Source: Sanchytrium tribonematis
Lineage: Eukaryota
Assembly: GCA_018985235.1 (NCBI GenBank)
Contig: JADGIG010000019.1
Span: 1 to 44,879, forward strand
Length of the DNA: 44,879 nucleotides
Direction: 5' to 3'
Each line of letters starts with the position of its first letter. Positions within the stretch are counted from its first letter, which is position 1. This document shows positions 9,019 through 10,063 of this stretch, one piece after another. Both the position numbers and the translations under genes were made by a program. The notes below the pieces were generated by a model that had not been told where the DNA came from, made no database searches, and saw only the letters and a list, made by a program, of their open reading frames with translations.

Positions 9019-10063
9019 ATGACTACAATTCGAGTTGGTATCAACGGATTTGGCAGAATCGGAAGATTAGTGTTGCGAGCAGCTTTACATCAAAACAAAG
9101 ATGTTTCTGTTGTCGCAATCAACGATCCATTTTTAGATGTCAAATATATGGCATATTTGCTTAAATATGACTCTACCCACGGAAGATTTAAAGGTACTGT
9201 CGAAGCCGATGGCGATAAACTAGTTGTCAATGGTACACCTATCACAGTCTATTCCAGTATGAAGCCCGAGGAAATTCCATGGAAGGAATCCAATGCTGAT
9301 TATGTAGTGGAATCTACTGGAGTTTTTACTACAATTGATAAGGCTGGTTTGCACTTAAAAGGAGGTGCAAAGAAAGTCATCATCACAGCACCATCTGCTG
9401 ATGCTCCAATGTATGTAAATGGTGTCAATTTTGATAAGTACAATCCAAAAGATAAAGTTATTTCAAATGCTTCCTGCACTACTAACTGTTTGGCTCCTTT
9501 GGCAAAAGTTATCAACGACAAATTTGGCATTGAAAGTGGACTAATGACAACAGTCCATGCAACCACAGCAACTCAAAAAACTGTTGATGGTAAATCAATT
9601 TTATTTAGGACCTTCTGGTAAAAACTGGCGTGACGGACGTGGTGCTGGACAAAATATCATTCCAGCAAGCACTGGTGCTGCTAAGGCTGTTGGTAAGGTT
9701 ATCCCTGAATTAAATGGTAAATTAACTGGAATGGCATTTAGAGTTCCTACTCCTGATGTCTCTGTAGTTGATTTAACTGTCAACTTAAAGAAAGAAACTA
9801 CTTACGAAGAAATCAAGAAAGCCATCAAGGAAGCTGCCGAAGGTCCAATGAAAGGCATTTTGGGATATACTGAAGACAATGTCGTTTCTCAAGATTTTGT
9901 TAGTGATACTCATTCAAGCGTTTTCGATAGCGAAGCCGGAATTCAATTGACTCCTACATTTGTAAAGTTGATTTCTTGGTATGACAACGAGTTTGGTTAT
10001 TCCAACCGTGTTGTCGATTTGGTACGACATGCTGGAAAGAAAGACGCTGAAGCAGGAATTTGA
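9019..10063 (+). CDS. GAPDH: Glyceraldehyde-3-phosphate dehydrogenase; exons 9019-9589 and 9609-10063 (341 aa)
   Basis: [39 protein letters not shown] and [18 protein letters not shown]. Confidence 0.98.
9590..9608 (+). other. 19-nt GT-AG intron in GAPDH (gtaaatcaattttatttag)
   Basis: Removal restores the invariant QKTVDGPS motif exactly. Confidence 0.97.

What the first reader, a model, noticed from the sequence alone, without database searches (positions are those of the whole stretch)
9590..9608. Invariant branch-point geometry: T at -8 and A at -6 in all eight introns, with little 5' splice-site signal beyond GT(A)
Seen: in an ungapped alignment of the eight 19-mers, position 12 is T and position 14 is A in 8/8, position 13 is always A/T, position 15 is a pyrimidine in 7/8, the end is TAG in 7/8 and the start is GTA in 7/8. 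None has the usual G at +5 or a polypyrimidine tract. Known: TnA is the core of the yUnAy branch consensus, and Stentor tiny introns also branch at an A 6 nt from the 3' end. Inference: a 14-nt lariat loop with a fused branch/3' site, convergent with ciliate tiny introns. The splicing factors U2A' (38319) and RBM39 (26192) are retained in this window.
Basis: partly seen in the sequence, partly recalled or inferred. Interest (0 to 1): 0.75.

Follow-up and report, generated by a model that had tools for sequence, protein, structure and literature searches.

The report
Nineteen-base introns in sanchytrid fungi
This DNA, from a relative of the alga-parasitising sanchytrid fungi, has genes interrupted by inserts only 19 bases long that are very likely real introns, shorter than any fungal introns found in the papers searched, and all keep an A six bases from the end that likely serves as the splicing branch point.

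Summary
The pattern is real. The window is from an unnamed sanchytrid (AP-1 gamma tree 100/100 with Amoeboradix gromovi). Seven of eight 19-nt GT-AG inserts sit where removal restores a conserved protein; the eighth (8864-8882) is unverified. All have T-8 and A-6. In the seven, a column-free shuffle gives P=2e-4 for the pair; A-6 alone is significant (about 0.01), T-8 alone is not (about 0.18). Independent check: relatives' ORF-called proteins read into the same introns. Five of 13 could be resolved (four 19 nt, one 20 nt) and all allow T-8/A-6 (P about 4-8e-4); the 20-nt one favours 3' anchoring. One intron position is shared with 63-76-nt introns of other fungi. Best reading: shrunken U2-type introns with the branch A fixed five bases before the end, a 14-nt lariat loop. 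No RNA, lariat or snRNA evidence was obtainable. The geometry is known (Stentor, Yarrowia); the lineage and the length among fungi were not found in print (ten searches). The scan noted tiny introns before in Rozella and Neolecta, not in sanchytrids.

The parts
9590..9608 (+). 19-nt GT-AG intron in GAPDH, phase 1 (focal intron)
   Evidence: Only frame-restoring GT/GC-AG pair near the junction; Pfam Gp_dh_C halves meet at profile position 34; solved GAPDH continues TVDGPS; same break in 4 relatives' proteins
9601..9603 (+). T-n-A core: T-8 (9601) and predicted branch A-6 (9603)
   Evidence: Invariant in 8/8; role as branch point inferred
9019..9589 (+). GAPDH exon 1
9609..10063 (+). GAPDH exon 2; spliced protein 341 aa against 200 aa unspliced
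2950..2968 (-). 19-nt intron in a TBC-domain GAP gene, phase 1
   Evidence: RabGAP-TBC profile 2-169 before and 171-215 after, leaving exactly the split codon
17552..17570 (-). 19-nt intron in a short-chain dehydrogenase gene, phase 0
   Evidence: adh_short profile ends at 141 and resumes at 143 on exon-2 residue 2; a 25-nt alternative acceptor exists but would drop two residues
22177..22195 (-). 19-nt intron in AP-1 gamma adaptin, phase 0; position shared with other fungi
   Evidence: Spliced product ungapped across the junction with 4 of 5 distant homologues; same codon boundary holds 63-76-nt GT-AG introns in L019, L021, L023, L024
24836..24854 (-). 19-nt intron in a Sec1-family (Vps45-like) gene, phase 2
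   Evidence: Sec1 profile 1-496 before, 528-575 starting right after the acceptor; acceptor fixed by homology, donor is the GT that shares it; a second allele differs at -4 only (base 24839)
30504..30522 (-). 19-nt intron in kexin, phase 0 (the one that starts GTT)
   Evidence: Only frame-restoring pair; DGYT|N junction ungapped with 4 of 4 distant kexins; same break in 3 relatives
39659..39677 (-). 19-nt intron in ATG2, phase 1
   Evidence: ATG2_CAD profile ends at 1422 and the split codon is 1423; same break in 2 relatives
8864..8882 (+). Unverified eighth candidate (ends AAG) at the end of a coiled-coil ORF; removal would add 19 residues net of 5
   Evidence: T-8/A-6 present; no family match, weak TPH-domain lead; low profile rank; would shorten a 137-nt spacer in a genome with median spacer 31.5
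38319..38915 (+). U2A' gene (U2 snRNP protein)
26192..27487 (-). RBM39/CC1-like splicing factor gene
   Evidence: TIGR01622 best match, below its curated cut-off

Best explanation
These are 19-base GT-AG inserts in conserved genes of a sanchytrid fungus that are very likely removed by the ordinary U2-type spliceosome, with the invariant A six bases from the end predicted to be the branch point. U2 snRNA would pair with the five bases before and one base after that A (consensus here W-W-T-T-W-A-Y, mostly U-A and U-G pairs), the A would attack the first G to give a 14-nt loop, and the AG five bases on would be taken without scanning or a pyrimidine tract. The donor would be found mostly as GT(A) at a near-fixed distance upstream in an A/T-only patch (intron definition with a length ruler). 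Nineteen bases would be about the least that holds a 5'-site helix (+1 to +6) and a branch helix (+9 to +15) without overlap. Shown: boundaries, length, invariant bases, conservation in relatives, one ancestral position. Inferred: splicing itself, the branch nucleotide, snRNA pairing, the ruler.
For: 7 of 7 homology-anchored inserts are GT-AG, 19 nt, and restore colinear proteins. T-n-A invariance P=2e-4 after allowing any column. Of 13 relatives' read-through peptides, the 5 resolved at both ends (P0124 Sanchytrium tribonematis, P0126, P0131, P0250: 19 nt; P0002: 20 nt) all allow T-8/A-6, P 4-8e-4 under three base compositions; P0131 forces A-6; P0125 (A. gromovi, 20 nt) and P0127 (21 nt) force both bases if their stop is the terminal TAG. 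In the 20-nt P0002 intron position +14 must be C or G while -6 may be A, which favours anchoring to the 3' end. AP-1 gamma intron position and phase are shared with 63-76-nt fungal introns. U2A' is encoded. An allelic change in one intron falls on the variable -4 column.
Against: No transcript, lariat or snRNA data at all. n=7; T-8 alone is within chance. In 4 of 7 the -7 base is also A, so the branch could be -7 there. Only 1 of the 5 resolved relatives forces A-6; the others only allow it, and all 5 are orthologues of window introns, so not fully independent. 3 of 13 read-throughs (P0123, P0129, P0130) would break the rule if their stop were the terminal TAG (23, 15, 15 nt); they fit only if the stop is internal, and P0123 must be at least 23 nt. 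3' anchoring rests on one resolved intron and one conditional one. No kexin of 107 non-sanchytrid proteins breaks at the kexin site (many are spliced models, so weak), and 14 or so intron-poor AP-1 gamma loci lack the AP-1 intron.
Confidence: 0.75

Rival explanations
1. Real introns, but the conserved A is placed from the 5' end (always +14), as in myxozoans and dicyemids, and sits at -6 only because every intron here is 19 nt.
For: The window cannot separate +14 from -6 (all 19 nt). PMC13644364 reports that in myxobolids and Dicyema the A's move away from the AG as introns lengthen.
Against: P0002 (20 nt, resolved) cannot have A at +14; P0127 (21 nt if TAG-terminal) has T at +14 and A at -6.
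Confidence: 0.1
2. Real introns, but T-8/A-6 is an extended acceptor motif read by a protein (as TTTCAG in C. elegans), and branching happens at another or variable A.
For: No branch mapping exists here; nucleomorph introns of the same length splice well with no discernible branch A (PMC6009652); -7 is A in 4 of 7.
Against: The spacing T-n-A followed by a pyrimidine is the register of the known branch consensus WCTRAYN (PMC2483917); in 3 of 7 introns -6 is the only A between -8 and -3.
Confidence: 0.09
3. Real introns, but the invariance is small-sample noise in A/T-only sequence, helped by picking candidates that fit.
For: n=7-8; any invariant T column arises in 17-20% of shuffles; the eighth candidate may have been chosen for its fit.
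Against: Seven boundaries are fixed by protein homology, not by the motif; pair P=2e-4; 5 of 5 resolved relatives compatible, P 4-8e-4.
Confidence: 0.04
4. The inserts are not spliced: pseudogenes, assembly errors or ribosomal frameshift sites.
For: No RNA seen; the MCM9 gene in the window has a +1 break with no usable GT-AG.
Against: Exact GT-AG ends and one length in 7 of 7, in housekeeping genes; same breaks in two named sanchytrids and several unnamed relatives; 3 of 7 contain an in-frame stop; position shared with normal introns.
Confidence: 0.02

Closest known systems
Tiny introns of the heterotrich ciliate Stentor coeruleus (PMC9505925, passages read)
   Same: GT-AG, A/U-rich, GTA start, one dominant length, putative branch A at -6 in both length classes (position 10 of 15, 11 of 16), 5-nt tail; 18% of genes have introns against 7-8 of 30 here.
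   Different: 15-16 nt with a 10-11-nt loop against 19 nt with a 14-nt loop; T-8 not singled out there; unrelated lineage, so independent origin; Stentor snRNAs were examined, sanchytrid ones were not.
Chlorarachniophyte nucleomorph introns, Bigelowiella natans (PMC6009652, passages)
   Same: Same size class (18-21 nt), AU-rich, donor little more than GT(A).
   Different: No discernible branch A there; 3.1 introns per gene; an endosymbiont's relic nucleus, not a cell's main nucleus.
Fixed branch-to-AG introns of Yarrowia lipolytica, Trichomonas, Giardia (PMC2483917, passages)
   Same: Branch site anchored to the 3' AG with no pyrimidine tract; in Y. lipolytica the A is at -6 by my count.
   Different: Those have a strong ACTAAC-type motif and Yarrowia introns are long; here the motif is reduced to T-n-A and the whole intron length is fixed.
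Microsporidian introns, Encephalitozoon cuniculi (PMC3629993 and PMC6349667, passages)
   Same: Reduced fungal-lineage parasite with very short introns; TAAY-type branch motif near the 3' end.
   Different: 22-76 nt, a few dozen per genome, strong donor and branch motifs, 5'-biased; here 19 nt, about one per four genes, weak donor, and lying late in the genes.
Mikrocytos mackini introns (PMC10245619, section 7 read)
   Same: Reduced parasite, near-single length (16-17 nt).
   Different: Highly conserved intron sequence, none in metabolic genes; here interiors vary and GAPDH carries one.

Membership tests
U2-type spliceosomal intron | GT-AG ends whose removal restores a conserved reading frame | tested here: met
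   7 of 8 candidates
U2-type spliceosomal intron | Branch motif of the TnA/WCTRAY kind before the acceptor | tested here: met
   T-8/A-6 invariant, P=2e-4; 2-5 of 7 matches to the yeast heptamer; motif only, function not shown
U2-type spliceosomal intron | Position shared with normal spliceosomal introns of other species | tested here: met
   AP-1 gamma site in 4 loci with 63-76-nt introns; tested for this site and, weakly and negatively, for kexin
U2-type spliceosomal intron | Removed from mRNA through a lariat | not testable with these tools
   No RNA holder listed
U2-type spliceosomal intron | Organism encodes U1, U2, U5, U4/U6 snRNAs and core proteins | tested here: inconclusive
   U2A' and an RBM39-like gene in the window; no Rfam match in 44.9 kb; no genome held
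Stentor-type tiny intron | One dominant length below about 22 nt | tested here: met
   7 of 7 at 19 nt in the window; relatives 19,19,19,19,20 resolved, one at least 23; introns of 3n length without a stop could be missed
Stentor-type tiny intron | Conserved A stays at -6 when length changes | tested here: inconclusive
   One resolved 20-nt intron excludes +14 and allows -6; two conditional cases force -6
Stentor-type tiny intron | Length 15-16 nt | tested here: not met
   19 nt; it works like these introns but is an independent, longer class
Intron-poor strong-consensus introns (Yarrowia, Trichomonas, E. cuniculi) | Strong six-base donor and strong ACTAAC-type branch motif | tested here: not met
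   G at +5 in 0/8; no C in the branch motif columns -9/-10 except once
U12-type intron | Long conserved donor (RTATCCTT) and TCCTTAAC branch motif (recalled, from no call) | tested here: not met
   Column counts show neither motif
Sanchytriomycota (host lineage) | Groups with Amoeboradix/Sanchytrium; compact genome, about 35% G+C | tested here: met
   AP-1 gamma 71% identical to A. gromovi against 39-54% for other fungi; clade 100/100 in an 18-row single-gene tree; GAPDH 83% to S. tribonematis; G+C 30-42% by kb against 34.6-36.3% (PMC8371127)

The most novel reading that the evidence does not exclude
The whole phylum Sanchytriomycota has the shortest introns of any fungus (19-21 nt, an estimated 1,500-2,000 per genome, overlooked because the genomes were annotated without introns), reached independently of ciliates, and splices them with a remodelled spliceosome that sets the donor by a ruler from the branch A rather than by U1 pairing.
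Probability: 0.25. Interest if true: 0.75.

Novelty: new member of a known kind. Interest (0 to 1): 0.55.

Why it matters
It adds an independent origin of near-minimal introns, in a fungal nucleus, 3 nt below the shortest fungal value met in the papers read (22 nt, E. cuniculi). Unlike nucleomorph introns of the same size it keeps a visible branch signal, so the lariat geometry can be read and tested; the same 5-nt tail in Stentor, Yarrowia and here points to a hard lower limit on the branch-to-AG distance, with lineages differing only in loop size. Practically, the published sanchytrid proteomes were made by ORF calling on contigs (PMC8371127), and about a quarter of genes in this window are split, so those proteomes hold truncated proteins (seen directly for GAPDH, AP-1 gamma, kexin, ATG2), which may bear on gene-loss inferences.

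Tried and rejected
No whole genome is held, so no genome-wide logo. No RNA holder listed; the one DNA run X1 may be the source of the window and is not independent. Rfam found no snRNA in the window at gathering score or E up to 1. A U2-like stretch near 10290 on the minus strand is coding sequence of DPM3. Selection for in-frame stops as the cause of TAA/TTA was rejected: 19 nt shifts the frame anyway and 4 of 7 have no internal in-frame stop. Hidden further introns: a profile scan of 2834 GT-AG candidates of 15-26 nt put the seven first and showed no convincing sense-strand extra (the profile was trained on those seven). P0004 (AP-1 gamma) could not be resolved (22 nt gave a poor downstream score) and P0003, P0249 stop too early; they are counted among the 13 but give no evidence; duplicates P0121 and P0254 were not counted. 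The eighth candidate could not be tested by homology. No structure prediction was run, as none bears on the question.

Full report
What the window is. A very compact eukaryotic stretch: about 30 genes in 44.9 kb, median spacer 31.5 nt, G+C 30-42% by kilobase, with fungal marker genes such as MDM10 and kexin. The AP-1 gamma protein has three relatives at 68-72% identity and then a drop to 39-54%; one of the three is Amoeboradix gromovi. GAPDH exon 1 is 83% identical to Sanchytrium tribonematis and 85% to a cluster that holds A. gromovi. A maximum-likelihood tree of 18 AP-1 gamma rows (the first 620 residues; 14 of the 116 distant hits were used) puts the window with A. gromovi and two unnamed records at 100/100 on a long stem. 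It is therefore a sanchytrid distinct from both named species. Sanchytrids are alga parasites with 10.5-11.2 Mb genomes, sister to Blastocladiomycota (PMC8371127, passages).

The observation. Bases 9590-9608 are a 19-nt GT-AG insert in GAPDH. Removing the seven gives full-length, colinear proteins: Pfam profile positions meet exactly for TBC, GAPDH, SDR and ATG2; AP-1 gamma and kexin align without a gap across the junction to 4 of 5 and 4 of 4 distant homologues; for the Sec1-family gene the acceptor is fixed by the profile. For GAPDH and kexin the 19-mer is the only frame-restoring GT/GC-AG pair nearby. The eighth has no homology anchor and scores like background; I treat it as unverified. 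Column counts match the finding exactly.

Is it chance? With interiors 56% T and 39% A, 200,000 shuffles of the seven anchored introns give an invariant T-n-A pair anywhere in 2e-4 of cases, an invariant A column in about 1%, an invariant T column in 17-20%. So the pair and the A are real signals, the T alone is not shown. Among other GT-AG 19-mers of the window 24 of 283 (4 of 32 AT-rich ones) carry both. A at +3 is modestly enriched (P=0.016), T at +6 (6 of 7) is not (P=0.11); G at +5 is absent.

Independent test. No genome or RNA was available, and two metagenome scans found no sanchytrid DNA. But relatives' proteins were called as plain ORFs and read on into the introns, so their tails constrain the intron bases. 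Thirteen such tails were back-translated (sources). Five could be resolved at both ends because the next exon is recoverable in the shifted frame: GAPDH of S. tribonematis (19 nt), GAPDH P0126 (19), kexin P0131 (19), ATG2 P0250 (19), AP-1 gamma P0002 (20). In four of these one codon covers -8 to -6 and it is Leu or Ser, the only residues that T-n-A can encode; in the fifth A-6 is forced. The joint chance is 4-8e-4 under three compositions. Two more (A. gromovi GAPDH, 20 nt; P0127, 21 nt at another GAPDH site) force both bases if their stop is the closing TAG. Against: three (P0123, P0129, P0130) would violate the rule if their stop closed the intron and fit only with an internal stop; two are uninformative and one unresolved. 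The resolved five are orthologues of window introns, though their interiors differ and the proteins are 40-85% identical. The 20-nt intron cannot have A at +14, which favours anchoring on the 3' end.

Origin. The AP-1 gamma intron lies at the same codon boundary and phase as 63-76-nt GT-AG introns in four metagenome loci of other fungi (L019, L021, L023, L024; 4 of 9 loci examined, one more truncated inside the intron, four without the motif), none with A at -6. So at least this intron is an old spliceosomal intron that shrank. U2A' and an RBM39-like protein show that U2-spliceosome genes persist. Density is 0.16-0.18 introns per kb of gene, one per intron-bearing gene, against 1.30 in Allomyces and 0.01 in microsporidia (PMC8476143, passages); scaled to a 10-11 Mb genome that would be roughly 1,500-2,000 introns (inference).

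Mechanism. Most likely (0.75): U2 pairs with the A/U-rich segment at -11 to -5 and bulges A-6; branching gives a 14-nt loop and 5-nt tail; the AG is used without scanning; the donor is set by GT(A), A/T content and distance. The steps after the sequence facts are inferred from general splicing knowledge. Rivals: a 5'-anchored A (0.10), a protein-read acceptor motif with branching elsewhere (0.09), small-sample noise (0.04), no splicing (0.02).

What is known. Stentor introns (15-16 nt) have a putative branch A at -6 (PMC9505925, passages); nucleomorph introns of 18-21 nt have no discernible branch A (PMC6009652, passages); Yarrowia, Trichomonas and Giardia fix the branch-to-AG distance (PMC2483917, passages); Mikrocytos has 16-17 nt introns (PMC10245619, passages and section 7); myxobolid and dicyemid introns have A's that drift from the AG with length (PMC13644364, parts 1-2 of 3, all of the main text); E. 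cuniculi introns are 22-76 nt (PMC3629993, passages; PMC6349667, passages). PMC13685798 and PMC12862383 (passages) showed no lariat mapping in ciliates. The sanchytrid genome paper predicted ORFs with TransDecoder on contigs and has the word intron only in its reference list, as does PMC10459994. Ten full-text searches found no description of sanchytrid introns and no fungal introns under 22 nt; the library lacks most subscription papers and I read no supplements, so the claims 'undescribed' and 'shortest in fungi' are limited to that. Earlier notes of this scan cover tiny introns in Rozella (25-32 nt) and Neolecta (about 37 nt), none in sanchytrids; I did not check them.

Verdict. Observation confirmed for seven introns, eighth open; interpretation supported as an inference. 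A new, independent member of the known class of tiny fixed-geometry introns, probably phylum-wide. Interest 0.55.

Noticed in passing
window 32489-32510 (-), MCM9 gene 31399-33211: MCM9 homology passes from one frame to the +1 frame with no usable GT-AG intron; the only 3n+1 option is a 16-nt GC-AG that would delete conserved residues. The first frame ends ...AAT TGA. The X1 contig spans it without a gap (possibly the source). Candidate +1 ribosomal frameshift, or a broken allele.
   Followed up: partly
all seven anchored introns: They lie late in their genes (relative positions 0.42-0.96, mean 0.70, P=0.034 one-sided), opposite to the 5' bias reported for microsporidia and yeasts; one per gene.
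   Followed up: partly
window 4460-29697, run X1: Clusters of second alleles at about a quarter to two fifths of depth: the sample is heterozygous or holds two strains. One contig also skips 2984-3191 in the TBC gene, not explained.
   Followed up: no
P0127 (unnamed relative): A GAPDH that breaks at another site (after ITAPSA), consistent with a 21-nt intron that the window's gene lacks: intron gain or loss within sanchytrids.
   Followed up: partly
window 10368-10670 and 10689-14414 (+): A 100-aa ORF without family match lies in the same frame directly before the ATR-like kinase, separated by one TAA and 18 nt; separate gene or read-through unknown.
   Followed up: no
window 22085-24592 and 29361-31356: AP-1 gamma and kexin are also on one contig in A. 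gromovi (NODE_332): local synteny among sanchytrids.
   Followed up: no
window 8150-8881 (+): Coiled-coil protein with a weak lead to the TPH family of ciliary proteins, of interest in a fungus with a reduced, non-motile flagellum.
   Followed up: partly
window 34039-38112 (-): A 1357-aa protein with an N-terminal PAN domain and long Ser/Ala-rich repeats, likely secreted or surface-anchored.
   Followed up: no
window 10074-10340 (-): Small DPM3 gene in the largest apparent spacer.
   Followed up: yes
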